NCBI GenBank assembly: GCA_004431415.1 | Contig: QPMI01000594.1 | Location: 9,356-73,355, forward strand | Origin: Cyanophora paradoxa CCMP329 | Taxonomy: Eukaryota > Plantae > Glaucophyta | Reading direction: 5' to 3' | DNA: 64,000 nucleotides | Shown here: positions 44,656 to 64,000 of the stretch, piece by piece | Layout of the letters: every line of letters starts with the position of its first letter | Numbering within the stretch: position 1 is the first letter of the stretch | Notes under the pieces: generated by a model | What the model was told of the DNA's origin: nothing | Database searches by the model: none | Seen by the model: the letters and a program-made list of their open reading frames with translations, nothing else | Translations under genes and position numbers: made by a program

Positions 44656-44844
44656 CCTCATATTCGATTCAATGATTCCACGCTTGTACATGTGGGGATG
44701 GATGGGAAGCCATCGCATCTCACGATCACCCTAGGCCTCCTCATTCGATTTCACGCTTGTGGGGATGGAGCCTCGGAGGTGCCCGGGGGGGGCCATATAT
44801 AGCATCTCACCCTCCTCATTCGATTCCACGCTTGTGGGGATGGA
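44656..44844. repeat. Three copies of a ~34-bp unit CCTCCTCATTCGATTYCACGCTTGTGGGGATGGA (period about 75 bp)
   Basis: Copies at 44736-44769 and 44811-44844 differ by 1 nt; an interrupted copy lies at 44656-44702. Confidence 0.8.
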
Positions 44845-45876
44845 TCAGAGGGGCGACCGGACCATCGTCTCTATAGCAAAGGGGTGAGAGAAAAAGAGTG
44901 GGAACAAAGGGAATCGGAAATAAGATATTAATGCAAAGCGCGAGCGCTAGCGAGCGCGGGGGACGGGGGGAGGCGGGGGCCCGCGGCGGCGGACGGCGGC
45001 GCCGCGGCGGGAATTCGAAGGGCGGGGCGCGGCGGGGCGAGGGTCAACGGCGGCGGATCGTCGGACATGTACATGTGCAGCGGCGCGATCGAGGGGCATG
45101 CGCATGGCGCGGCGGAGTGGGGGGACGCGGCGGTGGACGGCGGCGGGACGCATACAACGTATACGCCCGTGGGCCCTTGGCCCCTAGCTAGGCCTGGCCT
45201 CGGGGAGTGCGGGGGCCCGGGGGCGGGGGGTGGGGACGCTGGCCCCCGGCCCTTGGGCCCTGGGTGGTTCCGGCCCGACTCCCGGGGGCCGGGGGCCCGG
45301 GAGTCGGGAGTCGGGACTCCAAAAAATGAGAGTACCCCCATCAGGGTGGGCCCGCCCTCTTTGCCACCCTCACCCCTCCAAAACCACCCCATCCCACCCA
45401 CTCCAGCGCCTTCCCAGCCCTCATTCTTTCCCACTCTCTCGCTACGTCTACCGCCCTTCTCTCCCTCTGGTCTACCTCCCCTTCCATCCAGCAACCGCTA
45501 GGTAGTATCTAACGTCTACTCCAATCGATCTTGCAAAAGATATAGCAGTGATTTGAGACGGGCCCCCAACGCGACGGTCTGCAGAGATAGCTTAATCAGC
45601 AGCTAGGCGTTAATACTGTGTTCTTCCTATCTAAATAGCGGAGAGGTTTCCAGTTCTAGCTAGACGATAAAACTATATAATCGAAGCTGATTGCATATGC
45701 GAGTTTAGGTTCTAGTTAGTCAATAATACTGTGTGGATGATAGCGCCGGTCTTTGAATCACCAACGGGTCACCGCAATTGAGGTTTCTCTTATTTTGTCT
45801 TAAAGAGATCCCTTTCCAATATTGCTATGTGAAGTTGCGTTTGGAACAAGCAAAAAAATTGTGATATATACTTCCA

Positions 45877-48800
45877 ATGGACGTTACCCAGAATAATGCA
45901 GCGACTCGGCGCTTCCGGTTGGCCAGAATCAAAGACCAGATCGAAGCGCTCGCGATATCATTGTATAATCGACGCGTCATACATTGGGCCTTCAAAAATA
46001 AATTGATTAGAATTTCAGCACAAGGCTCGAGAACACGTTTTGCAACGTTGGAAAAGTACGCTTCACTCTTGAACGAACTTGCAAGACTTCCTAGGTCAGC
46101 GCGTCCTGTGTCAGGTCGTCGACTAGAGCTAGCGATTGCTGAGGGCCAGGCCGACATTGTTCGAGGGTTCTCAGAATTACCTGAGGTTGACGGTGGAGAT
46201 GATGTTCAAATCAATGACAGCAATACGACTACAGCGCTTGACGGGCGATATGCGGAGTGGAAATACCAATTGCCTCGCGGTTCTGGCCGCGTAACCTCGA
46301 TGCAAGCCCGATTTGAGAACAACGAACTTTTCAAACAGAACGCAATAGCATTCGTTAGCGCCCAGGTAAATCTTGCAGAGGCGGTAAGAATGGGCATTGC
46401 ACTACAAATCTCTGGATTAGCGGTATACAGAAAGCCAGAGACTGATACAACAATTGCAATCATTATTGAGCATCGCCGTTTCGATCGCATCGAGCCAGGG
46501 GCAAGCATCGAGACTGCTCTGCGCTCACAGCTGGAAGAACTAGACATTCTTGCAACAGAGAAAAGCAGGGATTCCTCAGTTTTCGACACATGGATACATC
46601 TGGTCTTTAAAACTGTGCGATACTTCCGCCGCATGGGTGGTCGTGGACGTAGGTTCACACTCCCGCGGTGGCTTGTGGAGAAGCAGGCACTCATCAATAT
46701 CGATGCTCCGAACAATGAATGCTTCAAGTATGCTGTACTTGCAGCTCAGCACGCGCTACGACCGGGCCAGGATTCACGTAGTGCTTGTCATTATCGACCG
46801 TATGAGAGCTCTTTGGACTGCACTATGCTCACATTTCCCACCCCGCTAGATTCAAAGGTTTTCAAAAAGTTCGAGCAGGCTAACAACGTAAACCTATGTA
46901 TTTATACGACAGCATTAGATGAACAGGACATTGTACCAATCCATATCAGCGCAGCAAAAGACGCAATACCAATCTTGTATGTACCTGCAGGCAGCGACAA
47001 TGATGTAGGGCATTATCTCTGGATCAAGAACATCTCACGTCTGTTTGGAAAACATGATTCTCCCGCCAAACACTATTGTCTTGCGTGTCAAACAGGTTTT
47101 AGCTCAGGTGCTGCGTTTGAAAATCATCTTAAATATGACCGTTGCCTCGATCGAGACGAGCATGCGAGAGATGTTCTGCCGAAAAAAGGAGCCCACATCC
47201 AGAAGTTTATTAACTATGAGTACTCAATCCGGCAACGTCTGGTCGGATATGCTGATTCAGAGACGATTACAATGCCAATTCCCTGCATTAGTGGAAAGAC
47301 CGAAAAGAAAGGTGTGCATGTGATTGCTTCAGTCGGCTGTCTGGTTGTATCTTCGAAAGGTGAACAGTTTTGTTTCAAATACATGGGTTCGGAGAGCGAG
47401 GACTGCGCTGAGAAGTTCGTGCAATGGTTGGACGAAATGGAACCACAATTTCGAGAGCTCTTGCGAGAGACTGCACCAATCCAGATTACTCAGGAAGAGG
47501 AGCAGCGTTTTCAAACGACGACCGAGTGCTACATGTGCAAGAACACGTTCAAGGATGCGAAAGACAAGCACCGTGATCACTGCCACGAATCTGGCCGATA
47601 TTTCGGGGCTGCCTGCAGAGCTTGCAATCGACGCCGCGCGAAATCAGCTGCTGTTCCATTATTCTGGCACAACGGTCGAGGATTTGACTTCCACCTGCTC
47701 GTACGTGCTCTAGCATCTGGCTATAACCGTCGTTTAGCAGCTTGGAAGGAGTTTCAAGCGCATGTCGAAAGCGAGTTTGAAAGCAAGTACGGTGGACGTG
47801 AGATGACCCCAGAGCAGAAAAAGAAGGCGAAGAAGGGGCTCGAACGCCGACTCCGCCCACAGAGTCTCCTTTCGATAAAATTCGATCAGGTCTTTCAGAA
47901 TAGCGAGCGAATTTCGCAGTTCAAGTATGGAATTTACGTTCTACGGGACTCGGCTCAGCACTTGAATGCGAGCTTGGACGACCTTGCAAAGGCTCTGCCC
48001 GCGGAAAAGAAGAAGATCACGCGCTCGCTGTATCTGGACGAGACTCGGTTCAAGCTGATGACTAGCAAAGGGATTTACCCTTATGATTACATGACGAGCT
48101 GGGCTCGCTTTCAGGAGTCTAAACTGCCTGCACGTCGTTATTTCAAAAATCAGCTTAAACAGAAGAAATGCACGAAAGATGAGTACGCACATGCGAAGGC
48201 TGTTTGGCGAGAGCTCGGCTGCAGAACGCTATCAGGCTATACAATGGAGTATATGATGACAGATATCGCGTTACTAGCTGACGTGTTTGAAAACTATCGT
48301 GATACGTGTATTGAAACGTATGGCCTAGATCCTAGCTATTTTATGTCATCGCCGGGATTTGCTTGGCAGGCAGCACTTAAGCACACTGGAGTGAAGCTCG
48401 AGCTCTTTCACGAGGGCAGCAGGATATGCACAGATTTATAGAATCCGGGATCAGGGGCGGAATCTCAATGATCTCAAAACGCTACGCACGAGCTGAGAAC
48501 AAATATTTGAGCATAAAGTTCAACAAGTACACCCACGCTGTTGAGCCTACAGTCTCACAGTCTACATGCATGTCTAACTACTACCGAACACACAAGGAAT
48601 CGTGGCTCATGTACCTCGATGCAAACAACTTGTACGGCGTCGCAATGAAGCGCAAGCTACCCACAGGAGATTTCCGCTGGGATAAACTAGATCAAGACGT
48701 TGATGTAATGCAGTACGTTGCAAGCCTTGACGCGGATGGAGCTCGTGGCTATGCTCTCGAAGTCGATATGTACATGCCTGAGCATCTCCATGACGAGTTC

Positions 48801-49934
48801 TCAGACTATCCGCTGGCCCCTGAACGGATGTGTGTGTCCAAGGAACACCTATCAAAGCGACAACAGGATATGATTAACGACGAGAAGCTTACCTCAGTTG
48901 AACGAACTCCAAAGCTCGTTCCGAATCTGCTTCCAAAAAAGAATTATGTTGTTGATGGACGCTTGCTTCAGCTCTATACGTCACTGGGAATGATAGTAAC
49001 CAACATCCATCGGGTCCTATCGTACGAACAAAGCGCATGGCTAGGGCGTTTCATAGATCTCAATACTCAAAAACGTAAAGAATCGCAGTTCACATACCAG
49101 AAGGACCTTTACAAGTTGATGAACAACAGTGTCTTCGGAAAGACGATGGAGAACGTGAGAAAGCACTGCTTTTCAGAGCTTGTGACTTCGGGAGACCGTC
49201 TGGTGAAGATCAACAGCGAACCAAATCGGTTGAAGCAGGTGGTGATGTACGAAGAGAACCTTGTATTCGTTTCCAAGCGCAAAAGTGAGTACAATCTGAA
49301 CAAACCTATCTACTGCGGGTTCGTCATCCTCGAACTTTCCAAGCTGCACATGTACCGCTTTTACTACCAGGTGCTCAAGCCGCTTTGGGGCCAGCGGCTG
49401 ACACTATTAGGTACGGATACTGACAGTCTCATCATCGAGGTTCGCACCAAAGATATCTATGCTGATTTACGCTCAATCAAGCATGAGCTGGATGTTAGCG
49501 ACTACCCAGAGACACATCGATTCTTCGATGGCATGACAGCCGATGAGGTTCGAGCTCTACGATCGATGGGGAAAACTCCGGGATTATTCAAGGATGAGCT
49601 CCATGGTCTGCAAATGACAGAGTGGATCGCTAACCGGCCGAAATCTTATTATTATTCGCGTGAAGATTCCACGGACAAGCAGGTATGCAAGGGTATTCAA
49701 AAGACGTACTACAACAGACTCACAAGGGATGTATTCTTCCGGTGCGTCTGTCCTAAAGAGGGAGAAAAGCAATCGTATGACATCAAAGGAATTCTCGGTT
49801 TCCGCTCGAAACTACATGAGATTTATTTACAACGAACCTCGCGTCAGGCTCTTCATCCCCTTGATACCAAACGCTTCCTCGAGACTGACGGGATCAACAC
49901 CCGAGCGATTGGACATTATAAAAATCGCGCCTGA
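45877..49934 (+). CDS. polB: Protein-primed family B DNA polymerase (Polinton type), split by one frameshift near 48418
   Basis: Exo motifs YADSE, WHNGRGFD and YMMTDIALL; pol motifs YLDANNLYG, YKLMNNSVFGK and GTDTDS; EndoVII-like CxxC..DHCH..ACxxCN insert. ORFs 45877-48441 and 48426-49934 join as KLELFHEG/.QDMHRFIESGIRGG. Confidence 0.95.
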
Positions 49935-49943
49935 TTTACAAAG

Positions 49944-50846
49944 ATGTACCAGATTACTGCGCCACCGGGTGTCTGGCAAATTGACGTATTATTTATTGGG
50001 AGATTTCGCTTGTTTGCAGGAGTCGAGATTGCAACCCGCTTTGCTGTCGTGCGCAAGCTCGAGACCTTTAAGCAGCTTCCAAAAATGATTGCACAGCTGC
50101 CTGGAATCTGGGGTTTTTCTGGAGACAACGGTTTTAACACAGCAGCGATTCGGGCAATGGCTGCAGAGAACTCGTTAAAAATGCACACTGATGTGGCTAA
50201 GGATGATCACATTTCAAAAGGAAACAAGCTGGGAATTATTGACAGGTTTGCGCGGACATTGCGAGCGTTGATCCAGGCAGACACCGAAGCACGTGGCTCA
50301 CCGCATTTTCTGTCACGTTTGCCGGCAATTATTAAGGCGTACAATGAAACAGCCCACAGCTCTTTCGGCGGAGAGCACTCCCCAACATGGATGCGGGAAA
50401 ACTCGCAGGTTGCCGAGCAGTTGCATCAAGTGCGACAGCGACAGAACGATATCGAACGAGAGAATGCTAACTTGCCTAGACCAGGAACCGAAGTGCAAGT
50501 CCTGGAGCCGAAGCCAAGCGTGTTTGCAAAGGGTGTGGCGAAACCAAGCAAAGAGACGTATGTTGTTGCTGGCGCTGATAGAAATCGCATAAGGCTTATC
50601 ACTAAACAAGGCGTGGAGATTTCTAGACGCGTTAAACCATCGGAAATACGTCAGCCGCGTGAGCGTGCGCCTCAAACACGAATCGAAAAAGAAGAAGCGC
50701 AAATGCGACAGCAGAGGCAATTGAGGCGTGAGGGATTGATCGAAATGAAAAAATACAGCGGCCAGAGCCGGCAGTATCGAGAGCTCAAGAAGCTCGAAGT
50801 GGATGCTGAGCCTAAGCTGCGAGCGGGCGCTAAGCCACTTCTTTAG
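49944..50846 (+). CDS. Retroviral-like (rve) integrase
   Basis: WQID, FSGDNG, GIIDRFARTLR, YNETAHSSFG..SP: a Polinton-type integrase core followed by an SH3-like segment. Confidence 0.88.
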   Translation: MYQITAPPGVWQIDVLFIGRFRLFAGVEIATRFAVVRKLETFKQLPKMIAQLPGIWGFSGDNGFNTAAIRAMAAENSLKMHTDVAKDDHISKGNKLGIIDRFARTLRALIQADTEARGSPHFLSRLPAIIKAYNETAHSSFGGEHSPTWMRENSQVAEQLHQVRQRQNDIERENANLPRPGTEVQVLEPKPSVFAKGVAKPSKETYVVAGADRNRIRLITKQGVEISRRVKPSEIRQPRERAPQTRIEKEEAQMRQQRQLRREGLIEMKKYSGQSRQYRELKKLEVDAEPKLRAGAKPLL

Positions 50847-51138
50847 CAAGGCATCTGCGTGCAATGTATGCTTTATGATATTCCCGGATCCGATCAGGAT
50901 TCTCAACCCGATACTTCGCTGTAATAGCAAGCTGTTTCAAACGGTATGTTTCATTTGTATGACGAAGCTTTCGATTACGCTCGGCATTTTTCCTTCTGCG
51001 TTCTGCTAGAATATCTGGGGTAATCTCGATCGGTTTTGGTCCCTTCTTCTTCGGTTCATATGGCTCCATTGTCAACAGTCTCACTTTGGGCGGACGCCCA
51101 CGACCACGCTTTACAGCAGTACAATCTGCAGAACTCAT
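50830..51138 (-). CDS. Small basic AT-hook protein
   Basis: KRGRGRPPK motif plus a basic helical tail; first ATG at 51138. Confidence 0.65.
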   Translation of the reverse strand: MSSADCTAVKRGRGRPPKVRLLTMEPYEPKKKGPKPIEITPDILAERRRKNAERNRKLRHTNETYRLKQLAITAKYRVENPDRIREYHKAYIARRCLAKEVA

Positions 51139-51214
51139 TATTCGCTTATCTCTCAATAATAAGAGGCATAAATCCTTTAAGACAAATTAGCGCGACTTTT
51201 GGACCTTAAAGATA

Positions 51215-51778
51215 ATGCAATCTGTAGATGTAACGAAAAAGAAGATGGAGGTCGTCATTTCTGATGTACCAGAGGGTGCTGCGTTGATTCCGTTAATGGG
51301 CATTCGCAATCGACGCAAAGTCATCGTCGCCTACGCTCTTGTGTCACAGGATGATGCTGAGCGTGTGCTCGGGTTCCGCTGGAGTTTGAAAAAGGGATAT
51401 GTCAGAGCCAAGATCAATGGAAAAACCGTGTATTTGCATAATTTCATTGTTGGGAGACTTGAGAATGGGTTGACCGTTGATCATATTAATAATAACAAAC
51501 TTGATAATAGACGCAAAAATTTGCGGCTTGCAACAGCTCGTCAGCAGAATCTTAACCGTGGTCAGCTGCGAAACAACACATCGGGTTTCATTGGTGTTTA
51601 CTTCGATCAGCGAGATGGTAAATGGAAGGCAGAATATCATCTAAATGGCCGCAAAAAGACCATCGGTCGGTTTCAAACAGCAGAGGCTGCAGCTCATGCA
51701 CGCGATGCATATGCCTTAGAACACACCAGCGAAGAGGACAAGCCATTCTTGCGGCTGAACTTCCCAGTTACCGTTTAA
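51215..51778 (+). CDS. HNH endonuclease with C-terminal AP2 DNA-binding domain
   Basis: VDHINNNKLDNRRKNLR (HNH); TSGFIGVYFD..KWKAEY..IGRFQTAEAAAHARD (AP2). Confidence 0.92.
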   Translation: MQSVDVTKKKMEVVISDVPEGAALIPLMGIRNRRKVIVAYALVSQDDAERVLGFRWSLKKGYVRAKINGKTVYLHNFIVGRLENGLTVDHINNNKLDNRRKNLRLATARQQNLNRGQLRNNTSGFIGVYFDQRDGKWKAEYHLNGRKKTIGRFQTAEAAAHARDAYALEHTSEEDKPFLRLNFPVTV

Positions 51779-51811
51779 ATGAACGTCTTAAATGGCGTCA
51801 TTATTTTTTAA

Positions 51812-52195
51812 ATGGAACTCGAATTCGAAACGTTAGAGGAAGAGTTGGATCTTCAAAATCCATGGCCTGGTAGGACTCAACTCTCACCAAGTCACTGCAT
51901 CAGCTTCGGCATTTTCAAGGGCGCAAGCTATCTGTGGATCGCATCAGCACGTCCAGAATATACCGCTTGGTTGCTCAGACAGTCTTGGCTACCGGCTTTT
52001 GATCGCGCTGCTTTTTTACGCGCACAAAGCGCAATAGAGCCGAAGTCGTTCCAGAAGCTTTGTCAACAGAATAGACGCGGTCCGCGGTCGCGGCTTCATA
52101 AACAAGGACCTGAAACGAATGATTCAATTCAACGAAAAGACGCATTAGATCTGCTCGAGTCGCTCCGCCATTGTATTCGTCAAAAACGCAGTTGA
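51812..52195 (+). CDS. Small protein with FGxxKG...PxYxxWL motif (DUF3820-like)
   Basis: ISFGIFKGASYLWIASARPEYTAWLL; ATG in an AT-rich context; 3' part overlaps the ATPase on the opposite strand. Confidence 0.55.
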   Translation: MELEFETLEEELDLQNPWPGRTQLSPSHCISFGIFKGASYLWIASARPEYTAWLLRQSWLPAFDRAAFLRAQSAIEPKSFQKLCQQNRRGPRSRLHKQGPETNDSIQRKDALDLLESLRHCIRQKRS

Positions 52196-52679
52196 ACTCT
52201 TTGACATTCGAGAGGATCGACGAAAAGCATACATATTCGCAATTACGCCGAATCGTAGGACTGATTCCACAAAGACGTTGAGTGGTTATAAAAAGGCTGA
52301 TGTTATAATGACGCCCACTAGTAAAAAGCTTTTGCATTAATCGGTCGCTGTGGACGTTCACAAGGTCATTATCGAGCAAATCATCTAGAACGATTGCAAT
52401 CTTGCGCTCATCTTTCTTGCGTCGTCTTTCTTTTTGTCGCTCTAGAAGACGCTCAACCAAAACTGAATCCCATTCTTCCTGGATATTGCTTGAGTGAGTC
52501 GTGTCGTTCCACTGTTCTGTAAATGCTGTTGTGCTGAAGACGTAAATATCGTCTAGCTGCGGAGCTACTGCATTTAATACATGTTTAACGTAGGTGCTTT
52601 TGCCCGAGTTGGTGGGGCCGACAAACAAGAACCGTTTAGGCAGTTTTATTTCTGTAGGATCAAACAGTTTGATATCCAT
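51975..52679 (-). CDS. A32-like genome packaging ATPase (element 1)
   Basis: Walker A GPTNSGKS, Walker B IVLDD, GRHYNISLFITTQ, IRRNCEY. Confidence 0.93.
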   Translation of the reverse strand: MDIKLFDPTEIKLPKRFLFVGPTNSGKSTYVKHVLNAVAPQLDDIYVFSTTAFTEQWNDTTHSSNIQEEWDSVLVERLLERQKERRRKKDERKIAIVLDDLLDNDLVNVHSDRLMQKLFTSGRHYNISLFITTQRLCGISPTIRRNCEYVCFSSILSNVKEFNCVFDEYNGGATRADLMRLFVELNHSFQVLVYEAATADRVYSVDKASGTTSALLRFVRVKKQRDQKPVAKTV

Positions 52680-53870
52680 CTAGAAGTTACTTACCTTTAG
52701 AGTTGACATTTGATACGAGTTAATTACGAGAACATTGTGGCGCAGGACGTGGAAGTCGACAACTGCTGGCGCTGCGTTTGTGCAGCCGGTTACAGTTAGC
52801 GAGCAGTAGCTGCTGCTGGAATTAAAGAAGTCTGTGTAGCCGAGGACAGCGTTATGCAGTGAGTCTTTGCCAGATTTCGAAAGCACAATCCCATAGACAT
52901 TTCCGTCCTCGAAGCCAAGGGCTGAATTACCAGTGGTTGCACCGCGGTATTGAGTTGGAATGTGATAGCACGATGATACAAACCCAGAGATTGGCTTATT
53001 GCTGATGTCGAGAGTTCGGTTGTTGTGCATGATCTCAAACGAATCGATTTTCAGCGCATTTCCGTTGCCAGCAAATGAATTGTGATTGCGAGTGCCCAGG
53101 TGATTCGCATTACGCACTGTCATCAGGATCGCGTGCACAAGGCCGCTGACGTTGGCAAGGGAGATTTCGACTGCATTCCCCGCGTCGTCAGTCTTTAACT
53201 GCCTCGAGCGCTTTGAAATAATCTCGGTGAAAGGAATTCGAATACCACCGCTCTCGTTTGCAGATTTAAGCATAGACTCAGCCTCTTCGCTAGGGATATT
53301 CACGAACTGGCAAACCAGGGCACAATCCGTTAGAGTTGCAACAGCACTAGCGACAGTTCCAACCACGCCAGCCGAACGGAAGTCAATTTCGACGGTTGGC
53401 ATGTCAGCCAGTGCGAGCAGCGGGAAGTACGAATTGTCCCAGAGCTGGGAGGGGATCTTTAGTACGTACTCGCGACTCGCATCGAGAATCTCAAGAGCCG
53501 CGTCCTTTCCAAAGCCGTAGCTGCTAGCAAAAGCCTGGGCGGATGCAACGCTATTATCGATGAGCGCGTTCACAGTAAGCCAGTCTCCGGGGATCACCAT
53601 CTTGAAGGATCCATGGACAAAGCGCACGTTTTCAATAAATGCACCTGCGCCATTCGGCAGCACTGAGGCAGCCGCTCCGCCAGCGACGCTGACCTTAAAG
53701 TATAGCGAGACACCGTTTAGAAGCTGCTTGCGCGGAAGGTCGAAAGCGGCAGTCTGCGCAAAGCCGTACGAGTTGCCTCGCGGACGGATCGTTTCAAGGA
53801 AAGGCTTGAACTTGGGGCTGACACCGACAGTGAACACATATTGAAAAACGAATTTAAATCCCTCGTTCAT
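52680..53870 (-). CDS. Double jelly-roll major capsid protein (element 1); N-terminus overlaps a hairpin
   Basis: About 400-aa beta-rich protein next to the ATPase. It aligns by eye with the 57742 protein (FDLPR/FKLPR, IPGDWL/VPSDFL, YFPLLAL/YLPLGAL, ISLANVSGLV/INLSQISGLV, GYTDFFNSSSS/GYVDLTNSSSS). Confidence 0.8.
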   Translation of the reverse strand: MNEGFKFVFQYVFTVGVSPKFKPFLETIRPRGNSYGFAQTAAFDLPRKQLLNGVSLYFKVSVAGGAAASVLPNGAGAFIENVRFVHGSFKMVIPGDWLTVNALIDNSVASAQAFASSYGFGKDAALEILDASREYVLKIPSQLWDNSYFPLLALADMPTVEIDFRSAGVVGTVASAVATLTDCALVCQFVNIPSEEAESMLKSANESGGIRIPFTEIISKRSRQLKTDDAGNAVEISLANVSGLVHAILMTVRNANHLGTRNHNSFAGNGNALKIDSFEIMHNNRTLDISNKPISGFVSSCYHIPTQYRGATTGNSALGFEDGNVYGIVLSKSGKDSLHNAVLGYTDFFNSSSSYCSLTVTGCTNAAPAVVDFHVLRHNVLVINSYQMSTLKVSNF

Positions 53871-53929
53871 CTCGATCGCTTCGCGATCTCGATTCACTCT
53901 GGATTTAAATTCGTTTTTCAATATGTGTT
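53833..53929. repeat. Perfect 29-bp inverted repeat with 39-nt loop
   Basis: AACACATATTGAAAAACGAATTTAAATCC (53833-53861) and its exact reverse complement (53901-53929). Confidence 0.95.
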
Positions 53930-54250
53930 AATTTAACTACTAAAATACATATTTATCGATTAATTTCTTTAACTTTTTATGCAAACTTTGTATAAATTAA
54001 TGCAAACTTTGTATTAAAAATGATAAACGCGTTTAATTTAATGCATATTCACGATTGATTCGATCGATATTATATCGATATATTATGTTCTTTGTCGATT
54101 ACATATATAACTTCGATTGATTAACATTAAACTACTTAAAGAACGATATAATCGCGATTAATTCGCATAAATTCGCATAAATTCGCATAAACTCGATATA
54201 TCTCTCTGGTATTGAAGTAGACCACCGCCCATTCTGTATCGAAAAACGCA

Positions 54251-54716: not shown

Positions 54717-54828
54717 TATGTTCTATAAAACAGAATAATTGAGATCAAGTGTGACAGGTAGTATTCAAATGATATTCAGTAAGAGATAGTTTTGTTTTTG
54801 AGAAAGTCAGTAAGAGGGGTGGAATGTC

Positions 54829-55264
54829 TGTGACGCCTGTGACGGCTGTGACGCCTGTTTTCAGAAGTCTGTCATTTTTGAAAATTTTAAAAAGTTTGAA
54901 AGTAGGTGTCACAGGCGTCACAGGCGTCACACTCAATTAAATTAGGTGTCACAGCGAAATTGCAGACCATTTCCAGTAAGACAACTTCGCATTTTCGGAA
55001 AGGTGGATTAATGGATAGTGTTTTGTAGGTGTCAGAGGTGTCACAAGACGGATTTCAGTAAGACAAGAATATATTTTTGAATATCTCAGTAAGAGAAAGA
55101 GATTCCATTTTTAATTGGGTGTGACGCCTGTGACGGCTGTGACGGCTGTTTTAAGAAGTCTGTCATTTTTGAAAATTTTAAAAAGTTTGAAAGTAGGCGT
55201 CACAGGCGTCACAGGCGTCACAGTCAATTAAAGAGGCGTCACAGTCAATTAAATAGGTGTCACA
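54829..55264. promoter_or_regulatory. Putative replication origin: duplicated inverted 9-bp iteron clusters flanking an AT-rich core
   Basis: (TGTGACGSC)x3, an AT tract TTTTTGAAAATTTTAAAAAGTTTGAAA, then (GGYGTCACA)x3; present at 54829 and again at 55120 (period 291). The function is inferred. Confidence 0.6.
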
Positions 55265-55421
55265 CCCGATTATCTGACCATTTTCAGTAAGACCATCTGA
55301 AATTCTGAATTTCTCAGTGTCAACTAACTCGGAAATCGCAATACTCTATGTTTCTCCGATTTCTCCAACCCTGAAAACACACCTGTTATTCTCTCATCTA
55401 TCTCATGAGATACTCTCGTTT

Positions 55422-55441
55422 CGCCAAAAATTGACAAACGA
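55422..55441 (+). promoter_or_regulatory. Putative early promoter motif CGCCAAAAATTGACAAACGA (near copies at about 61093 and 61534)
   Basis: 18/20 identical to CGCCAAAAAATGACAAGCGA at 61534-61553; contains AAAATTGA. Confidence 0.5.
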
Positions 55442-55466
55442 TTTCCCATCATGCTGTAAAGGAAAC

Positions 55467-55733
55467 ATGCCGATTAACCAGCAATATCACAATTTCCATG
55501 GGACTTACATCTTGATTGTGAAAAGAATACAAGATCATTATGAGATCTTTCAAGAGATGGGATTGCGAATTACAAGGAGATCAACTCTTTGTAGATTCTT
55601 GAAAAAGAATGGTGCTAAATGGGATAAGACAATTCGCCGATGGTATACAGAAGATCGAAAGAGTCCCATTCTTAATATTTTCGAGACAGATGGGGAGTTC
55701 TTCTATCAGGATCGGTTTAATCATTACCAATAG
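55467..55733 (+). CDS. Small protein with DUF5710-like motif
   Basis: LKKNGAKWDKTIRRWY; first in-frame ATG at 55467, downstream of AAAATTGA. Confidence 0.6.
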   Translation: MPINQQYHNFHGTYILIVKRIQDHYEIFQEMGLRITRRSTLCRFLKKNGAKWDKTIRRWYTEDRKSPILNIFETDGEFFYQDRFNHYQ

Positions 55734-56649
55734 CCAAGAACTCTAACTGGAATGAGTTGTCAATTCCATTCATATCTACAAGATCACCATAATAATCGCG
55801 AAACTCAACTGTTAACTCTCTAATCACAAGGTTTCGATCGGTTATTTTTATGTATTCACTGTGCTCTCCACTGTGATAAACATACTGTCCAATATCTTTA
55901 CTTAATTGCAATCTGAGAATCGCTCCTTGATTCTGTGGTTGAGATTGTGGGACAATATTGTGGTTTGTAGCAAATGGGGAGAGTTCTTTAATGTGCATGT
56001 ATAAATACTGTTCTGCATTCATATCTGTCATCTTGGAAGCTTCTAACTTGTAGTTTAAGCGAGATGCCTCGAATTCATATCCTGTGAATGTGATTCCCCA
56101 TTGGGGATGGTTTGGGGTGATTGGTATTCCTGCGAAATAAAGGAAATTCTCGGGGGCATATAAAGACCTTGCAGACTCTGGGAAATCGTAAATCTGTTCA
56201 GTGGAAGCCACCCACTCCACTGAACTCACACCAAGAAGTTTACCCAATCTCTGTGTAGATGCAACCATATCGAATTGAACATTACTGTAAAACTCCAATT
56301 TGTAGGAGGTAGGGTTGTAGTAGACCTTGAATGCATATGTGAGATTGTTGCTCCCAGTAAATGTGAAATTCAGACCATAATTATATGGAGTGGTGACCCC
56401 GAAATGACCTTGATTTATGTAACCACTTGGGAGAAGGAAGACCTGCTTGGTTTCAGAGATGCCTTGGTAGTAGAATCTGACAAGAAGGTGGTCTGTTCCA
56501 ATGGAGTTATAGATGCTGTTGGGGATCTCTGCATACAAAACTCGACATTCTCTTGGTTTGGTCACTGGGGTTGTGAGTGAAACTTTGTAGGAGTTTTCTA
56601 TTTGTCCATCTGATCGGTCTCTGCTATCTATATTGACCAGCCGAATCAT
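55717..56649 (-). CDS. Minor capsid (penton-like) protein A
   Basis: N-terminal IDSRDR...AEIPNS; C-terminal YLYMHIKEL...LTVEFRDYYGDLVDMNGIDNSFQLEF, typical of PLV/NCLDV single jelly-roll pentons. Confidence 0.8.
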   Translation of the reverse strand: MIRLVNIDSRDRSDGQIENSYKVSLTTPVTKPRECRVLYAEIPNSIYNSIGTDHLLVRFYYQGISETKQVFLLPSGYINQGHFGVTTPYNYGLNFTFTGSNNLTYAFKVYYNPTSYKLEFYSNVQFDMVASTQRLGKLLGVSSVEWVASTEQIYDFPESARSLYAPENFLYFAGIPITPNHPQWGITFTGYEFEASRLNYKLEASKMTDMNAEQYLYMHIKELSPFATNHNIVPQSQPQNQGAILRLQLSKDIGQYVYHSGEHSEYIKITDRNLVIRELTVEFRDYYGDLVDMNGIDNSFQLEFLAIGND

Positions 56650-56677
56650 TTTAATATATGTTTATAGATAAAAGAAG

Positions 56678-57687
56678 ATGCCTGTGGATTACATTGAAGT
56701 GAGCTCTTTCAATACAATTTCGGGAGATGGACCTACTTCGAGTTTTATTGCTCGCCTCCCAGCACATATGAATTTGTAAGAGCAGTAAGACTGGTCTCAG
56801 CAGAATTCTATAACAGCATCCCCATGGTGAGTGGTGAAACCAAAGTAGGAGATGTGACAATAGATAATGCATTCTACCTTTATTGGTCTGAATATCTTTC
56901 TGGTGCAGGAAGCACTGGTATTCCAACTGATCGACCTGCTGCTGATTATGAATCATGGAAACACATTGTGATAAGTCGCAGCACACCCATTCAAAACCAC
57001 CAACAACTGGTGAATGTAATTAACTCCAAACTTGCATTGAGAGAACCAGCAGTAGCTATTCGTTGCAAATGGGATGATACACTGAAACGAGTTATATTCC
57101 ATTCAACCATACCGTTTTACCTGGCTTTCTCAACCGCAATTAACCCAACCCAGGCACAGATTCAGAGGTTTTTGAGTTCTGCTCGACTGCTTGGTCTTGA
57201 TCCTGGGAGATATGGTAACACACCAATCCAATCACAGGTGTACAATACTCTTACTGATGGTATCTTCACTGGGTCGATGGTGCATGGTATTATATCTTCA
57301 TTTGAACCCGAGAAGACCAGGGATAGTGTCCTATTTGTGAGAGTAAAGGAGCTGGGTGATCTTGTGCAATGTGGTGATGGTCTCCTCACTGGATATTTCC
57401 ACAAAATCGTGGTTCCTGATAAAGATTATGGTGAGCATGTCGTTTATAATTCGACAGAAGCCCATCCGATTTATAAATACTATAACAAGAATCTGGGACT
57501 TTCCACATTTTCGGTTGACATTGTGAATGCAGTTAATGAACCAATTGATTTCGAGGGTCAACCTGTGCACCTCACCTTCGAAATTCGATATGGTGATGAA
57601 CCTGCTGGTGATCCTGTGTACGAATACTTCAAGAGGAGAATGGCGGAAACCCATCCATCTTATCCTGTAATTGCGAATTTTGCGTAA
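56678..57687 (+). CDS. Minor capsid (penton-like) protein B; frameshift near 56760
   Basis: ATG 56678 MPVDYIEVSS..RLP joins STYEFVRAVRLVSAEFYNSIP in the frame of ORF 56824; C-terminal LFVRVKEL...FSVDIVN..EPIDFEGQPVHLTFEI parallels protein A. Confidence 0.72.
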
Positions 57688-57741
57688 AATCAAGGATCAT
57701 TGGTGAATTTTTTATGTTGCAGTATAATAAAAGAGATAATC

Positions 57742-59115
57742 ATGGATATTACTTCGACCCTCCAACGTCTTTCTCTGAAAGAAGCTCTAACAACCCCGGA
57801 AGAAGCCAAGGCGTTCTTCTTGGACAACTCTCTCATGCTTGGTCTTGAATCCAAGTCGAAGCCAGTTCTTGTTGTTGTGAACCCAAGCAACACTTTCGAG
57901 AATAATGCTGGAAATCGCATTTCTTTCAAGCTCCCTCGCTACAATTTCTGTGGAAAACTCGAACTTGCGTTTGACCTTCCAGCTGTCACTTTTGCTGGTG
58001 ATACCGACCTTGTTCGCAATGGATACGTTCGCCCAGTTGGTGCTCTTGTCTCTCGACTTGAAATCACCTATGGATCTTACACCTTCCATGTGCCTTCTGA
58101 TTTCCTTGCTCATTTCCCTCTTATCTATTACAGTGAGGATCAACTCGCCAAGAAGAAGCGTTCAATGGGAATGGTTCATGGTATCCCTGCCCATGGAACC
58201 AACCGACTTGGTGGGTCATTTTTCACTGAAATCCCAGTCCCATGGCTAAACCACTACCTACCTCTTGGTGCTCTCTCAGGAGAAATGGTGGTAACTGTCT
58301 GGTTCAAGGATGCTGGAAAGGGTTATGTTGAGACTTCTTATGGTGGTCGTGCTCTTCCTGTTGTTGGTGGAACAGCTGCTGATAAGACAGAGGATGATGG
58401 ACTTGGTGCTACTGCTAATGCTACTCTTGCCCATGTTGGTCAACAAATCACCACTTTTGGAATTGGTGCAACAACAACCCCCGAAATTAAAGTCACTTCT
58501 CCTCGTCTTTACATGCATGCTATTAATGTTTCTGATGAACTGTTTGCTACTGTCATTGAGAAGGTGAAGACCACTGGTATGGCTATTCCTGCTCTGGATA
58601 TTGGTTTTGTTGACAGTGTCAATTTTTCTGCAAAAGGAAATGCTCAACCAAATCGTATTAACCTGTCACAGATCTCTGGTCTTGTCTATGGTCTTCTTGT
58701 TTCAGTTCGTGATGCCGCAGGTATTGATGGTTTCAATGGTTCCCACAGTGTCCTAAAAACGCATGCTAACTCAAAAGACATCACTTTCACTGTTGAAATT
58801 AATGGTCAACGTCTCTATGCTACTGAGCCAATTCCTCTCCTCAAAGGTGCCGAATTAATTGCGGATGCCTTCAAGTGCTCGAATATGGACAAGGTTGCAG
58901 ACAAATATGTCCTCAGTGGTCTACCATTCTGTGTTGATGGAGAGAAAGCGATTCGCAACATTGCCCAGTCTGGCTATGTTGATCTCACGAACTCCTCCTC
59001 CTCTTTCCTCACTCTATACATGCCTTCTGACCAGACAATCACTGTTAATGTTCGTGCTCTCATGCACAGTTTCATTATAGTCGATAAGGACGGCCTGAGG
59101 CGAATCAATCTGTAA
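57742..59115 (+). CDS. Double jelly-roll major capsid protein (element 2)
   Basis: 457-aa intact ORF from ATG 57742 between the pentons and the ATPase; strong codon bias; homologous to MCP1. Confidence 0.82.
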   Translation: MDITSTLQRLSLKEALTTPEEAKAFFLDNSLMLGLESKSKPVLVVVNPSNTFENNAGNRISFKLPRYNFCGKLELAFDLPAVTFAGDTDLVRNGYVRPVGALVSRLEITYGSYTFHVPSDFLAHFPLIYYSEDQLAKKKRSMGMVHGIPAHGTNRLGGSFFTEIPVPWLNHYLPLGALSGEMVVTVWFKDAGKGYVETSYGGRALPVVGGTAADKTEDDGLGATANATLAHVGQQITTFGIGATTTPEIKVTSPRLYMHAINVSDELFATVIEKVKTTGMAIPALDIGFVDSVNFSAKGNAQPNRINLSQISGLVYGLLVSVRDAAGIDGFNGSHSVLKTHANSKDITFTVEINGQRLYATEPIPLLKGAELIADAFKCSNMDKVADKYVLSGLPFCVDGEKAIRNIAQSGYVDLTNSSSSFLTLYMPSDQTITVNVRALMHSFIIVDKDGLRRINL

Positions 59116-59177
59116 AACCATTATCAGTAACGTTTCGTTATTTTTATCTATCTTTAATAAGAAAGATCTACAAAGCC

Positions 59178-59959
59178 ATGAACGATTTAGAAGAATTTGT
59201 TGCATCTGAGATGATAACCCCACCATTTCGTGCTCTTTTCATAGGAAAGTCTGCAACAGGCAAGTCAGAATGTGTGAAATATTGGTTGAAACAGCTGCAT
59301 GATGCGAAAAAGATTGATACTGTTCTTGTTGTGAGTGGGACGTCCTTCAATCATTTCTGGGATGCAGTTGCAACATTGCAACTCGGGAAATGGGATGCTG
59401 CTTACATTTCCAAATTACTGGATGAAAGGCAGGAGAAAATCGAAAAAGGGAACCTGTCAATCACCTGTGTGTGGTCTTAGATGATCTAATAGACAACGAA
59501 ATCATTGATTTGACCCGAGACAAAATCGTGGGATCTCTTTATTCCAGAGGTCGCCATTCGAAAATCTCGATTATCTGCATCACACAGAAGCTGAGGAAGG
59601 TTTCTTCAACAATTCGAGTAAATTCGGATTATGCTGTGTTCCTGAGTGCTGCAAATCGCAAAGAACTCGAAGCCATTGAAGAGGAGTACAATATCATGCG
59701 AAACAAGGACGATTTCTATAAGATGTTTGAGGAGTATGTACACTCCTACCAATATATTGTGTGGTCTTCTGCGAATTATTCGGTGAACTATTATGTTGAT
59801 AAAGCGGATCTGGTCAAAGATTTCGCATTTCCTCGGTTCCACAGGAAGCCCAAAAAGAAAGAAGATGAACTACCATCTCCACAGAAAGAGGAAGCACCCA
59901 AGGAGGTAAAGAGTGGTGTTCATTCAAACAAACTGATGCGATATAAGAGAGGATTGTAA
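59178..59959 (+). CDS. A32-like packaging ATPase (element 2); frameshift near 59450
   Basis: GKSATGKS in ORF 59178; VVLDD, RGRHSKISIICITQ and IRVNSDY in ORF 59471; the break is at GAAAAAGGG. Confidence 0.9.
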
Positions 59960-59987
59960 AATAATCTCTGCTTCTTATAAATATACA

Positions 59988-60722
59988 ATGCCTTCGAAAC
60001 GCAAAGTTGGTGTTCCTGCTGGTGCTATGTCATATTCTGCATCCTCTGGAACCGGTTCTATTAACACAGATCCCATGAAATTCAATGGTGTCAATGAAGT
60101 GAAAGCATCACAGCAACAGGAAGATCCCCTCAATGCTGCTTACGAAGAATCTCCCGATGATAAAGCGCCCCAGGCATCCACCAGTGATCAATTGAATATT
60201 TCGCCCGAAGCCACAAAGATGAAGGCAGTTGGTGAAGGTGCTCGTCGAATAATTGGTGCTGCTGATGATAAAGGACTTGGTCTGCAAGATCTCTCACTTG
60301 CCCGCAAAGGTGAAGGTGTCTCCAAGGAATCCGACAAGGTAATTCAATCCATGGCTGGTGAGGTGACCTACAAGACAGCACCAACTCAAAACATCCACCG
60401 AATTCCCAAAGCCCAATGGGACGAAATGACTGCGAAACTTAAAGATCTGGAAGCGAAATCGAGTGCACTTGAACAGTATGTCTCTGAGAAGAAAGAGAGA
60501 GCGAAATTAAAGGAGATGCTGCGAAAGGAGGTGTATAGAATGGGAATCACTGGTCTTCCAGATAAGCAGTTCATTGGTAAGAAAGAGACTCAAATTGATG
60601 AGCAGGCAGTTGATGAGATGAAGACCAAAACCCAGAAGGGAACCATTGAACCTGGTGCTACCAAATCAGAGGTCGATAAAGGTGTTGCCCCAACAGTATA
60701 TAAACGACGAGTTTGGCTATAA
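59988..60722 (+). CDS. Hypothetical viral protein (244 aa, charged, coiled-coil)
   Basis: Intact ORF, codon usage like its neighbours, AT-rich leader. Confidence 0.75.
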   Translation: MPSKRKVGVPAGAMSYSASSGTGSINTDPMKFNGVNEVKASQQQEDPLNAAYEESPDDKAPQASTSDQLNISPEATKMKAVGEGARRIIGAADDKGLGLQDLSLARKGEGVSKESDKVIQSMAGEVTYKTAPTQNIHRIPKAQWDEMTAKLKDLEAKSSALEQYVSEKKERAKLKEMLRKEVYRMGITGLPDKQFIGKKETQIDEQAVDEMKTKTQKGTIEPGATKSEVDKGVAPTVYKRRVWL

Positions 60723-60749
60723 TTATCTCGCTTTAAGAGAGAGAGCATC

Positions 60750-60983
60750 ATGGATTTCTTGCGAAAAATCATTGAAATGTTTAATCTCCACATTGTGAGC
60801 AATTGTCACAGTGGTTGCTGTGATACAAAAGTCGAAATCGAATTCTCTGACAATGAAAGTCATGGATCTGGCGGTAGGCGATTATCCACAGACTCGGTGG
60901 ATTTCGAGGAGCATATTAAAACAGAGACAGTGAGGCGACGCTCTGTATCTTTCACAGATCCGAAATTAAATCTCGGTTATTAA
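60750..60983 (+). CDS. Small hypothetical viral protein with CHSGCC motif
   Basis: 77-aa ORF tiling between neighbours; amphipathic N-terminus followed by a Cys cluster. Confidence 0.55.
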   Translation: MDFLRKIIEMFNLHIVSNCHSGCCDTKVEIEFSDNESHGSGGRRLSTDSVDFEEHIKTETVRRRSVSFTDPKLNLGY

Positions 60984-61184
60984 TATCGAATGCTCAGTCT
61001 CTCTGAGATCTATGCTATCCTTGAAAGGAAATCCGCTGAATATGCAACAGAAGACGCAATAAAAAAGCGTAGACAGGAACTGGTCTCGATCTGCAAAAAA
61101 TGACAAGGGATTTAAGGGTAAGGTGTGTTTGATTGGTGAACCCGGACAAATTATTTTCTCGTCCAAATATAAGGAACATATCAA

Positions 61185-61411
61185 ATGGAAACTGAATCTG
61201 TGGTCGAATTCGAACTTGCAATGAGCGAAATGGATCCCAATGAGAGGAAAAGGTTGTATGACCGCTTGTATTTCCAGAAACGCTATCAAGATGAGGAATT
61301 TCGTGAATTATATCGTAAAAGGCACTGGAACGATATTATCGCAGGAAAGCTGCTGAGATGGATCCCAATAATCCAGTTAAACGCCCAGTAGGTCGTCCCA
61401 GGAAATACTGA
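61185..61411 (+). CDS. Small AT-hook protein (element 2); frameshift near 61320
   Basis: YFQKRYQDEEFRELYRK continues in a shifted frame as ALERYYRRKAAEMDPNNPVKRPVGRPRKY*. Confidence 0.62.
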
Positions 61412-61603
61412 ACGCCCCAAAGTCCCAGATATCCGCTGAATCCTTTTTGTTACCATGATCAATCGACTTTTCGATGGATCATTACCATATATCGAGCGCC
61501 AATCGGAAAACCCAAAGGTATTTAAAGGTTAGCCGCCAAAAAATGACAAGCGACCGGAGAAATTAATTTCTCCATTAAGGATAAGAAGCCCCCGATTGTT
61601 GAA

Positions 61604-63950
61604 ATGAACGCTGCCGCCAAGAAATCCCTGAAACGCCTTGTTGAATGGCTTCGTGAAGACGATGTCCTGTCTGAGAATATCGTAATTCCTGTTGATCCTG
61701 ATACCAAGAGACCGCTTTTCGCTCATAAAGACGGAACCTGGTCTTGGGATAAATTCGATGAAGCCCTGAAATCCGGTAAGTATACTGCTTGGGGGATTCT
61801 CGCTCGTAATATCCTGGTAATTGACTTCGACCAAGAGGAGGATTTCGCCAAATTCGAGGAGCAATTCCCTGATGATTTCGGTGGTGTTAATCCTCTTGCT
61901 AAAACCAAAAAAGGATATCATGCATTCTTTGCCCGACCTGTTGAATTCGACACCTGTAAGATTTGGGATAAAGCAGGTGCATTCAAAGGAAACCCCAAGA
62001 TCGACTGCAAAACGATTGCATCCACTGGGACTGCTGGGGTAATTAATATTTGTCCCAGTCCCAACAAAACATGGATCAGAGAGCCATGGGCATCTGAGTG
62101 TGAGTTAAATGAACCTACTGCTGAGTTGCAAAAGTGGATTGTTGACAACTACGAATTCCCCAAAGGTGCACATTCTTATTTTGAGAGGTGCGCTGAGGAG
62201 AATTTGCAGAAACATATTCTTTCTAAACTGGAAGAATTCGGTTTCATCTTGCCCACAATCATCAATGAGACCAAGATGGGATACAATTTCACTGCTGAGA
62301 ACAAAGGTCTGATCTGTCCCTGCTGCAAGGGAAGCCATGACTCGAACAATTGGTATATTGTTCAAGGAAGGAGAAGGACAAATATATTGTTTCGAGTTAC
62401 AGTGCAAACTGCAAAAAGCGAAGCATCACAGTTCGTGTGAAGGAAGAGACAGATGTGAAGATCGAAAATCTGATTGATCGGTCTGCTGGATCTGATGGTG
62501 CCCATTATGATGTTGCACAGGTTGCCTATCTTGTTCTGCAAGACAAATACAAGTATTCCAACAAGACCTGGTTCAAGTTCAATGATGTATGTGGGATTTG
62601 GGAGATGGATGAAACTGGGAAGCGAATCTTTCTCTGTTTGAGCTGCAAGGTCTGTCCAGTTTATCTTCAACGTTCTGTTCAACTCGCACAGAGAGCACTT
62701 CGTGATGAAGAGAACCGCAATTCCTTGGAGGAAAGGTCAAAGATTCTGCTGGGAATTGCTAAGAGCCTCAAACAGACTACATACAGAACTGCACTTATGT
62801 CTGATCTTTCAGTTCTGTTCAGTGACAAGACCTTTTTCGAGAGACTTGATACTGTTCCCAACATCATTGGATTTACAAATGGTGTGTTTGACCTGAACTC
62901 CATGACTTTTCGAAAGGGACTCCCAGATGATATGGTGAGTAAGACTGTTGGCTACGATTACACCACAGAAATTGACCAAGAGAAAGTTGCGAAGATTAAA
63001 TCCATCTATGCAGATCTGATCGAATCTGATGAAAACCGCGAATTTATGATGGGATTAATTGCCTATGCCCTGAGTGGTTTGACAGAAAATCAGAGATACA
63101 CTTGCTGGACTGGGAATTGGAGCAAATGGGAAATCACTGCTCCAAGAGTTGTGTGAAAGACACATTTGGTGAGTATATGGGTCACTGGACATGACATATT
63201 GGACTAAACCCAAGAAGAGTTCGTCAGAGGCTTCCCCAGAACTCGCTTGCATTCTTGGTAAACGATTGTTTTCAGTAATGAAGCAGAAGATGGTGATATG
63301 CTTCAACTGAACAAAATCAAACAGGACTGGTGGGAATGAGATGAAGGTTCGAGCTTCTTTTCAAAGATCTCTTTACATTCATTCCCATGTTCCAGTTGTT
63401 CTTGTCCACAAATGACAACTTGGGAATCAGTAAACCAGATGCAGCAATTCAAAGGCGAATTATCTACTACCGATTCGAAAATGTCTTCAAGGTCGATCCT
63501 CAGCCTTGAGAAGAAGCAGACACCACTCTCATGGCCTAATGAAGAATGATGACGATTATAAAATGGCGCATATGTCCATTCTCCTGGAAATGTGGAGAAC
63601 CCATTCTCTCAATGAATTCGTCACCAAAACCACCCCAGATTGTTGATCAAGGTGTTGAATATTTCAATGAGATGAAAGATTGGAGAATGGATTCGTGAGA
63701 GTTATGAACTCACCAAGAGTCAAGGGATTTCGCCACAAGTGAGTCCATTATCAGTCACTTTAAGATTGAATCACATGGGCAAATCTGATAGAAAATCACA
63801 GAATGCACTATCTTGAAGAGACTTCGCGAAGTCTTTAATGTGAAGCTGAGAGAAAGCAGTCAATGGTGTTCTTGCTCGTGGCTATTTGGGATCAAAAAGA
63901 AGCATAGTCGCAAGGGTGGATGACAGTGATGTTGAAGGTGGGATGAGTAA
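61604..63950 (+). CDS. Primase-polymerase / Zn-binding / D5-like SF3 helicase fusion; multiple frameshifts, end approximate
   Basis: PrimPol motifs LVIDFD and KTKKGYHAFF; CPCC..H; D5_N IGFTNGVFDL..FRKGLPDDMVSKTVGYDY; shifted-frame Walker A GANGKS (about 63120), ASPELA, SNEAE and TGGNEM. Confidence 0.88.
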
Positions 63951-64000
63951 ACAAAACAGAATCGATTCTAATACTGATTGAAATTTCTATTTTTAAAAAA

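What the first reader, a model, noticed from the sequence alone, without database searches (positions are those of the whole stretch)
45500..64000. Two related Polinton-like viruses with different replication systems fused back-to-back at one host locus
Seen: two MCP genes that align with each other, two A32 ATPases (each directly downstream of its MCP) and two AT-hook proteins. One module has pPolB plus rve integrase and is GC-balanced; the other has PrimPol-D5 helicase plus two pentons and is AT-rich. Known: PLVs swap replication modules, and endogenous virophages/PLVs cluster and nest. Inference: either element 2 inserted at the 5' end of the element 1 capsid gene (virus-in-virus targeting), or this is one chimeric dual-capsid element. 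In the visible part, element 1 has no penton and element 2 has no integrase, so complementation is possible.
Basis: partly seen in the sequence, partly recalled or inferred. Interest (0 to 1): 0.85.

Follow-up and report, generated by a model that had tools for sequence, protein, structure and literature searches.

The report
Hairpin-ended virus nested inside another's capsid
A small virus-like element with hairpin ends and no detectable integrase interrupts the capsid gene of a second Polinton-like virus, likely by a chance insertion; both occur separately at many other places in the host alga's DNA, so this is likely known virus-in-virus nesting, not one two-capsid virus.

Summary
The gene inventory is right, and both capsid genes are double jelly-roll. 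These are two independent multi-copy Polinton-like virus (PLV) families, very likely in the glaucophyte Cyanophora paradoxa.

Element 1 (E1, about 45320-53833; pPolB + rve) is cut near codon 26 of its capsid gene by element 2 (E2). In 4 of 4 runs, E1 contigs pass this point uninterrupted and E2's tip joins other flanks. E2 is nearly whole: a 95-nt imperfect terminal hairpin, a 1.4-kb terminal repeat whose inverted partner starts at 64000, PrimPol-D5, about 11.6 kb, and no detectable integrase.

A dual-capsid chimera, capsid-gene targeting and penton complementation are unsupported. No listed contig bridges the junction, so an assembly chimera stays possible (about 15%). Nesting, terminal palindromes, integrase-less PLVs and this capsid protein are all in print. 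The residue of interest is E2: small, hairpin-ended, integrated at many sites without its own integrase, with depth varying 3-4-fold between runs while E1's is steady.

The parts
45320..53833 (.). Element 1 (E1): visible left part of a Polinton-type PLV (pPolB + rve), multi-copy
   Evidence: Left end inferred from a low-depth X3 contig ending at 45349 and an X15 contig covering 45320-45747 with another flank
45320..45747 (.). Likely left terminal inverted repeat of E1 (about 430 bp)
   Evidence: X15 contig matches 45320-45747 with unlike sequence on both sides; raised depth in bin 45335-46001; inferred from one contig
45877..49934 (+). Protein-primed DNA polymerase B with an endonuclease-VII-like Zn domain; one frameshift near 48413-48441 that majority contigs lack
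49944..50846 (+). rve-type (DDE-like) integrase; lacks the ~60 N-terminal residues that four of five homologs have
50830..51138 (-). AT-hook protein of E1
51215..51778 (+). HNH-AP2 endonuclease; optional insert (about 3x flank depth versus 20-27x for pPolB; one contig skips it)
51975..52679 (-). A32 packaging ATPase of E1
   Evidence: Pox_A32 E 4e-11
52680..53833 (-). E1 major capsid protein, cut by E2 near codon 26
53834..64000 (.). Element 2 (E2): PLV with PrimPol-D5 and no detectable integrase; about 11.6 kb once the right repeat is added
53834..53928 (.). Terminal imperfect palindrome of E2: 28-bp perfect stem, three internal loops, 3-nt apex; end defined to within 1 nt (53833/53834)
   Evidence: (z -9.6)
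53834..55244 (.). Left terminal inverted repeat of E2 (about 1.41 kb), with 207-bp tandem units (54250-54707) and inverted arrays of 9-bp repeats (54829-54941, 55120-55232)
   Evidence: joint 55244-64000 on opposite strands in X1, X3, X5
55467..55733 (+). Small ORF, 88 aa, weak DUF5710 match below cut-off
55717..56649 (-). Predicted penton (minor capsid) 1
56698..57687 (+). Likely penton 2; 5' end uncertain, indel at 56677
   Evidence: weak
57742..59115 (+). E2 major capsid protein, double jelly-roll
59178..59959 (+). A32 packaging ATPase of E2, split by a frameshift near 59450-59480
59988..60722 (+). 244-aa ORF with no family; charged, likely coiled-coil
61186..61410 (+). AT-hook protein of E2, split by an indel at 61316
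61604..63950 (+). PrimPol-D5 (SF3) primase-helicase, broken by several indels of this copy or assembly; end approximate

Best explanation
One copy of a multi-copy, hairpin-ended Polinton-like virus (E2) interrupts the capsid gene of one copy of a second multi-copy Polinton-like virus (E1), likely through an untargeted insertion in the host alga's genome.

Shown: both families exist apart from each other; the break lies at E2's own terminus; this E1 capsid gene has lost its 5' end.

Inferred for E1: it replicates by protein-primed pPolB and integrates with its own rve integrase.

Inferred for E2: it replicates as a linear genome with hairpin ends, using its PrimPol-D5 and the repeat arrays in its terminal repeat as origin. 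It packages DNA with its own A32 ATPase, capsid and pentons. It integrates with an rve integrase supplied in trans, more likely from a sibling sharing its terminal repeat than from E1. This E1 copy likely cannot make capsid, while the intact copies elsewhere can.
For: Intact E1: E1 capsid contigs of two subtypes run through 53833 into non-E2 sequence in 4 of 4 runs. They continue unbranched for 1251 nt (X1) and 1465 nt (X2, X5). Read by hand in the capsid frame, those loose ends are open and end in ELYLSPGL, matching IYLSPGL in an intact relative (PMC10120064 Table S2 row 24).

Solo E2: its tip joins unlike flanks in X2, X3 and X5, one at single-copy-like depth 70. Its right repeat begins at 64000.

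Independence: depth over host flank is 20/27/20x for E1 pPolB and 31/35/9x for E2 D5 in X1/X3/X5 (rough, contig depth is not copy number). The junction falls on E2's terminus with at most 1 nt shared. E1 and E2 share no DNA similarity, and tblastx finds only the ATPase.

Helper available: glaucophyte PLVs tabulated in PMC12220804 Table S6 carry 85 rve and 0 tyrosine-recombinase hits (columns counted by me).
Against: None of the 32 contig pieces shown (153 more not shown) bridges the junction, and no joint is listed. The tool warns that contigs drop rare variants, and a short single-copy link between two deep paths is what short-read assemblers prune (my own knowledge).

The right junction, any target-site duplication and the rest of E1 lie outside the window.

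E2's end lacks the CA-3' typical of retroviral integrase substrates (recalled). The apparent end varies by 0, 1 and 4 nt among the few flanks shown.

Pfam also misses E1's own rve, so a very divergent integrase in E2 could be missed. The only large unassigned ORF is 244 aa.
Confidence: 0.75

Rival explanations
1. The junction is an assembly or library chimera between two high-copy elements near a poorly polished end, and does not exist in cells.
For: No bridging contig is listed in four runs. Indels against majority contigs are dense in 63.06-64.0 kb: 20 gaps in 795 nt for X1 and 26 in 1025 nt for X5.
Against: The break sits on E2's natural terminus, the same one seen at other flanks. There is no overlap longer than 1 nt for an assembler to join on, and the whole opened palindrome is present. 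The host-E1 join is consistent with X3's low-depth contig 45027-45349.
Confidence: 0.15
2. E2 targets the capsid gene of E1 as a virus-in-virus parasite and uses E1's integrase.
For: The insertion hits the 5' part of the capsid gene. E1 has an rve and E2 has none detectable.
Against: E2 tips join several other flanks, and no joint from E2's tip to another part of visible E1 is listed. Both E1 capsid subtypes are uninterrupted in 4 of 4 runs. The two terminal repeats share only chance 8-12-nt words.
Confidence: 0.06
3. The 18-kb stretch is one chimeric dual-capsid, dual-replicase element that moves as a unit, each half complementing the other.
For: The capsids are related. 'Hybrid' two-capsid elements and tandem elements with different replicases are reported (PMC12220804 passage; 10.64898/2026.10.13.758929 section 13).
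Against: E2 is bounded by its own repeats. The E2:E1 depth ratio changes about threefold between runs. MCP1 is cut here. No high-depth junction contig is seen.
Confidence: 0.04

Closest known systems
Cyanophora paradoxa endogenous PLVs catalogued by Bellas et al. 2023 (PMC10120064; passages and supplement rows seen) and re-tabulated in PMC12220804 (passages and Table S6 row)
   Same: 366 MCP hits in two groups in that alga. Table S2 row 23 shows a protein that reads, by eye, the same as the window's MCP1 frame including the hairpin-derived start (HHpred 96.9% to an ascovirus MCP). Another row appears to be P0006, 60% identical to MCP2. Glaucophyte PLVs have rve, pPolB, D5, HNH and no protease hits.
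   Different: In the passages and rows I saw, the nesting, the false N-terminus, E2's hairpin and its lack of an integrase are not described. Dataset S1 genome maps may be images I could not read.
Halocafeteria seosinensis nested PLVs and virophages with terminal palindromes (bioRxiv 10.64898/2026.07.28.741278; sections 7 and 8 read)
   Same: 5 PLVs and 9 virophages are embedded in other viral elements. Terminal palindromes occur in elements with non-pPolB replication, and hairpin priming is proposed.
   Different: There the palindromes go with particular rve integrases and the figured one is 52 nt. E2's is 95 nt with ordered internal mismatches, and E2 has no detectable integrase.
Maverick/Polinton elements (pPolB + rve + TIR; definition from passages of PMC11296320 and PMC12220804)
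   Same: E1 has pPolB, rve, A32, a double jelly-roll capsid and a likely terminal repeat.
   Different: The capsid is of a divergent type (only 2 relatives among 1.84 billion representatives for MCP2). No protease or penton in the visible part. Target-site duplication untestable.
Ca_PLV1, an integrated PLV without a known integrase (PMC11296320 passages)
   Same: Integrated with no detectable integration gene; trans supply proposed.
   Different: Insect host, one described integrated element. E2 is multi-copy in an alga and has hairpin ends.
Poxvirus-type hairpin telomeres (recalled; reference title on flip/flop mismatches seen in PMC11296320)
   Same: Imperfectly paired AT-rich terminal hairpin, tandem repeats inside the terminal repeat, D5-type primase-helicase, A32 ATPase, NCLDV-like capsid fold.
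   Different: E2 is 11.6 kb, integrated, and has no PolB, resolvase or transcription genes. Closed ends and flip/flop isomers are not shown.

Membership tests
Polinton-like virus (E2) | Double jelly-roll major capsid protein | tested here: met
   AlphaFold model (pLDDT 55.8, pTM 0.61) matches PBCV-1 capsid at E 1e-14, TM about 0.55
Polinton-like virus (E2) | A32 packaging ATPase and minor capsid protein | tested here: met
   Pox_A32 E 4e-8; penton 1 by Atlas only
Polinton-like virus (E2) | Terminal inverted repeats | tested here: met
   joint 55244-64000 on opposite strands in 3 of 4 runs (the three DNA-like ones), 38-42 nt on the short side; raised depth over 54.0-55.3 kb
Polinton-like virus (E2) | Integrase (rve or tyrosine recombinase), usual but not universal | tested here: not met
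   rve profile on 478 six-frame peptides hits only E1's gene, next best E 1.2; Pfam on 80 E2 frames of 50 aa or more gives no integrase
Polinton-like virus (E2) | Length 14-40 kb | tested here: not met
   10.17 kb visible plus a 1.41-kb right repeat gives about 11.6 kb; range from PMC12220804
Maverick/Polinton (E1) | pPolB plus rve integrase | tested here: met
   both supported by motifs and weak profile hits only
Maverick/Polinton (E1) | Double jelly-roll capsid and A32 ATPase | tested here: met
   aligns with MCP2; published HHpred 96.9%; Pox_A32 E 4e-11; MCP1 itself not folded
Maverick/Polinton (E1) | TIRs and 5-6 bp target-site duplication | tested here: inconclusive
   left repeat inferred from one contig; right end outside the window
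Maverick/Polinton (E1) | Maturation protease and penton | not testable with these tools
   absent from the visible part; rest of E1 not held; no genome available
Virophage (Maveriviricetes) | Virophage-type capsid and cysteine protease | tested here: not met
   NCLDV capsids outrank mavirus (rank 45); no protease among E2 frames
Nested insertion | Reads across both junctions and matching target-site duplication | tested here: inconclusive
   empty-site E1 and solo E2 shown; no bridging contig listed; right junction outside the window

The most novel reading that the evidence does not exclude
E2 is a minimal (about 11.6 kb) integrase-free virus with poxvirus-like covalently closed hairpin telomeres that is actively replicating outside the chromosomes in some cultures of a glaucophyte. 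It enters the genome through opened hairpin ends using a helper's integrase or host repair. Hints: its internal depth is about 31-35x the flank in X1 and X3 but 9x in X5 while E1 is steady, and tip depth rises less than internal depth (50x versus 39x). This would be a culturable test system for hairpin-primed PLV replication.
Probability: 0.25. Interest if true: 0.7.

Novelty: new member of a known kind. Interest (0 to 1): 0.4.

Why it matters
The nesting itself is a known outcome in genomes with hundreds of PLVs. One practical point: a catalogued capsid sequence of this group appears to carry a false N-terminus read from another virus's hairpin.

E2 matters more. Hairpin priming of PLV replication and integration without an encoded integrase have each been proposed but, in the passages I read, not tested. 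E2 combines both in a cultured alga, at high and sample-variable depth, so both could be tested with long reads and simple gels.

Tried and rejected
Genome and relatives: no whole genome is held. The MCP1 protein search found nothing. Locus scans with MCP2, MCP1, the capsid alignment and E1's ATPase found no relatives in viral or metagenome contigs. The hairpin stem has no match in viral contigs. The two loci found with the rve alignment (L001, L002; 16% GC) share only the integrase and were dropped.

Structure and families: single-sequence folding of MCP2 failed (pLDDT 32). Pfam, PHROGs and PDB sequence searches do not detect the capsids.

Reads: no RNA holder listed. X15 covers 12 of 30 bins thinly and is not used as evidence of expression. 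No flip/flop or head-to-head joint is listed, which contigs cannot exclude.

Earlier findings: three look-ups returned nothing.

Readings rejected: that the hairpin is a fold-back artefact, since its arms differ in an ordered way and contigs cover it at high depth. That MCP1 starts at the ATG in the hairpin, since intact copies have a different, homologous 5' end.

Literature: searches listed no paper describing this nesting or E2's ends. Subscription journals, bioRxiv supplements and figure images were not visible. 10.64898/2026.06.19.733378 and 10.1101/2025.10.09.676808 were searched by terms only, with no mention of hairpins or of this host in the former.

Full report
Observation. The ORF list, Pfam and PHROGs scans and frame translations confirm two gene modules meeting at 53.83 kb. 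Left (E1): pPolB, an rve-like integrase, an AT-hook protein, an HNH-AP2 endonuclease, an A32 ATPase and a capsid gene on the minus strand. Right (E2): two penton-like genes, a capsid gene, an A32 ATPase, a 244-aa orphan, an AT-hook protein and a PrimPol-D5 helicase. GC is 47.9% and 41.0% against 72.9% in the host flank. The capsids align at 22% (E 2e-11). A model of MCP2 from a four-sequence alignment (pLDDT 55.8) matches PBCV-1, iridovirus and other NCLDV capsids (best E 1e-14 in PDB; 1e-17 in BFVD), so the double jelly-roll test is met. Support for the pPolB, the rve and penton 2 is weaker: motifs, sub-threshold profiles and unnamed homologs.

Host. MCP2 has only 2 relatives among 1.84 billion representatives. 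The closer (60%) is a Cyanophora paradoxa protein. Bellas et al. 2023 (PMC10120064; I saw passages and supplement rows) list 366 capsid hits in that alga. Their Table S2 row 23 shows a protein that reads, by eye, the same as the window's MCP1 frame. The host is therefore very likely this glaucophyte, and the capsid was already catalogued.

The junction. At 53834-53928 lies an imperfect palindrome with a 28-bp perfect stem and three internal loops (z -9.6). The first 13 residues of the MCP1 ORF are read from it. Contigs of four runs laid on 53731-54010 show E1 capsid contigs of two subtypes passing 53833 (or 53831) into other sequence in 4 of 4 runs. They run on unbranched for 1251 nt in X1 and 1465 nt in X2 and X5. 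Read by hand, these continuations keep the capsid frame open and match the N-terminus of an intact relative in Table S2 row 24, placing the cut near codon 26. The same call shows E2's tip joined to unlike flanks in X2, X3 and X5, one on a 570-nt contig of depth 70. So both the empty site and solo E2 insertions exist. Against this reading: none of the 32 pieces shown (153 not shown) bridges the window's own junction, and no joint is listed. The tool warns that contigs drop rare variants.

Extent and independence. On 44001-64000, X1, X3 and X5 each have a contig joining 64000 to 55244 on the opposite strand. E2's right terminal repeat therefore starts where the window ends, the repeat is about 1.41 kb, and E2 is about 11.6 kb with its whole interior visible. 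An rve profile over 478 six-frame peptides hits only E1's gene, and Pfam on 80 E2 frames finds no integrase or recombinase, with the caveat that Pfam misses E1's rve too. Relative to the host flank, contig depth is 20/27/20x for E1 pPolB and 31/35/9x for E2 D5 in X1/X3/X5. These are rough figures, not copy numbers, but they show two multi-copy families that vary separately. E1's left end is near 45320, with a repeat of about 430 bp inferred from one contig. The E1 and E2 repeats are unrelated. Many frameshifts of the window (48413, 56677, 61316, 63112-63767) are absent from majority contigs, so they are errors or lesions of this copy, not features of the families.

Mechanism. Shown: two families, an interrupted capsid gene, a break at E2's terminus. 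Inferred: E2 inserted here without sequence targeting. It replicates from hairpin ends with its own primase-helicase, makes its own particle, and depends on an integrase in trans. A sibling sharing its repeat is the likelier donor. A related contig diverges after 55419 in X5 and X15, and hairpin variants exist. In X5 tip depth exceeds twice the depth of this E2 interior. Glaucophyte PLVs hold 85 rve and no tyrosine-recombinase hits in PMC12220804 Table S6. Host repair of opened hairpins is an alternative, given ends that appear to differ by 0, 1 and 4 nt among the few flanks shown. I put nesting at 0.75, an assembly or library chimera at 0.15, capsid-gene targeting at 0.06 and a dual-capsid unit at 0.04.

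Comparison with what is known. Nested PLVs and virophages, and terminal palindromes tied to non-pPolB replication, are reported in Halocafeteria (10.64898/2026.07.28.741278, sections 7-8 read). Tandem elements with different replicases are in 10.64898/2026.10.13.758929 (section 13 and passages). Two-capsid hybrids are mentioned in PMC12220804 (passage). An integrated PLV with no integrase is in PMC11296320 (passages). PMC8502044 mentions adintovirus-like polymerase and integrase variants in this alga (passage). PMC8547959 reports no sequence-specific integration for Cafeteria virophages (passage). I found no description of this nesting or of E2's ends in searches. Unseen supplements and figure images may bear on that.

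Verdict. The more striking readings are not supported. E2, a sub-12-kb hairpin-ended, integrase-free and sample-variable element, is the part worth following. Novelty: new member of a known kind. Interest 0.4.

Noticed in passing
window 50597-51962: The AT-hook/HNH-AP2 block of E1 has about 3x flank depth in X1, X3 and X5 versus 20-27x for pPolB, and an X1 contig skips 51238-51802: an optional, homing-endonuclease-like insert.
   Followed up: partly
window 1-10462: A giant host ORF (over 3800 aa, fibronectin-III-like repeats by eye) contains an exact 5457-bp tandem duplication, with no mismatch over the first 5005 bases: a very recent duplication or an assembly artefact.
   Followed up: partly
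window 53834-53928: All unpaired positions of the hairpin are pyrimidines on the top strand. Other copies have different tips made of short C/G-rich repeats (loose ends at 53864, 53899, 53901), reminiscent of parvovirus terminal 'ears' (recalled).
   Followed up: partly
window 54250-55264: E2's terminal repeat holds 207/135-bp tandem units and two inverted arrays of a 9-bp repeat: candidate origin or protein-binding sites.
   Followed up: no
window 55419: Contigs in X5 and X15 share E2's left end to 55419 and then diverge for 159-255+ nt: another E2-family element with different genes, a candidate integrase donor.
   Followed up: no
window 55245-64000: CpG observed/expected is 0.62 in E2's interior versus 1.10 in E1 and 1.01 in the host flank.
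   Followed up: no
window 44050-45320: A single-copy stretch of about 50% GC (44050-44930) with a 34-bp direct repeat, and a GC-rich hairpin at 45274-45315 just outside E1's inferred end.
   Followed up: no
L001 5991-7094; L002 6530-7654: Two 16%-GC contigs from giant-virus bins carry an rve homolog next to a large ORF, with no capsid match.
   Followed up: partly
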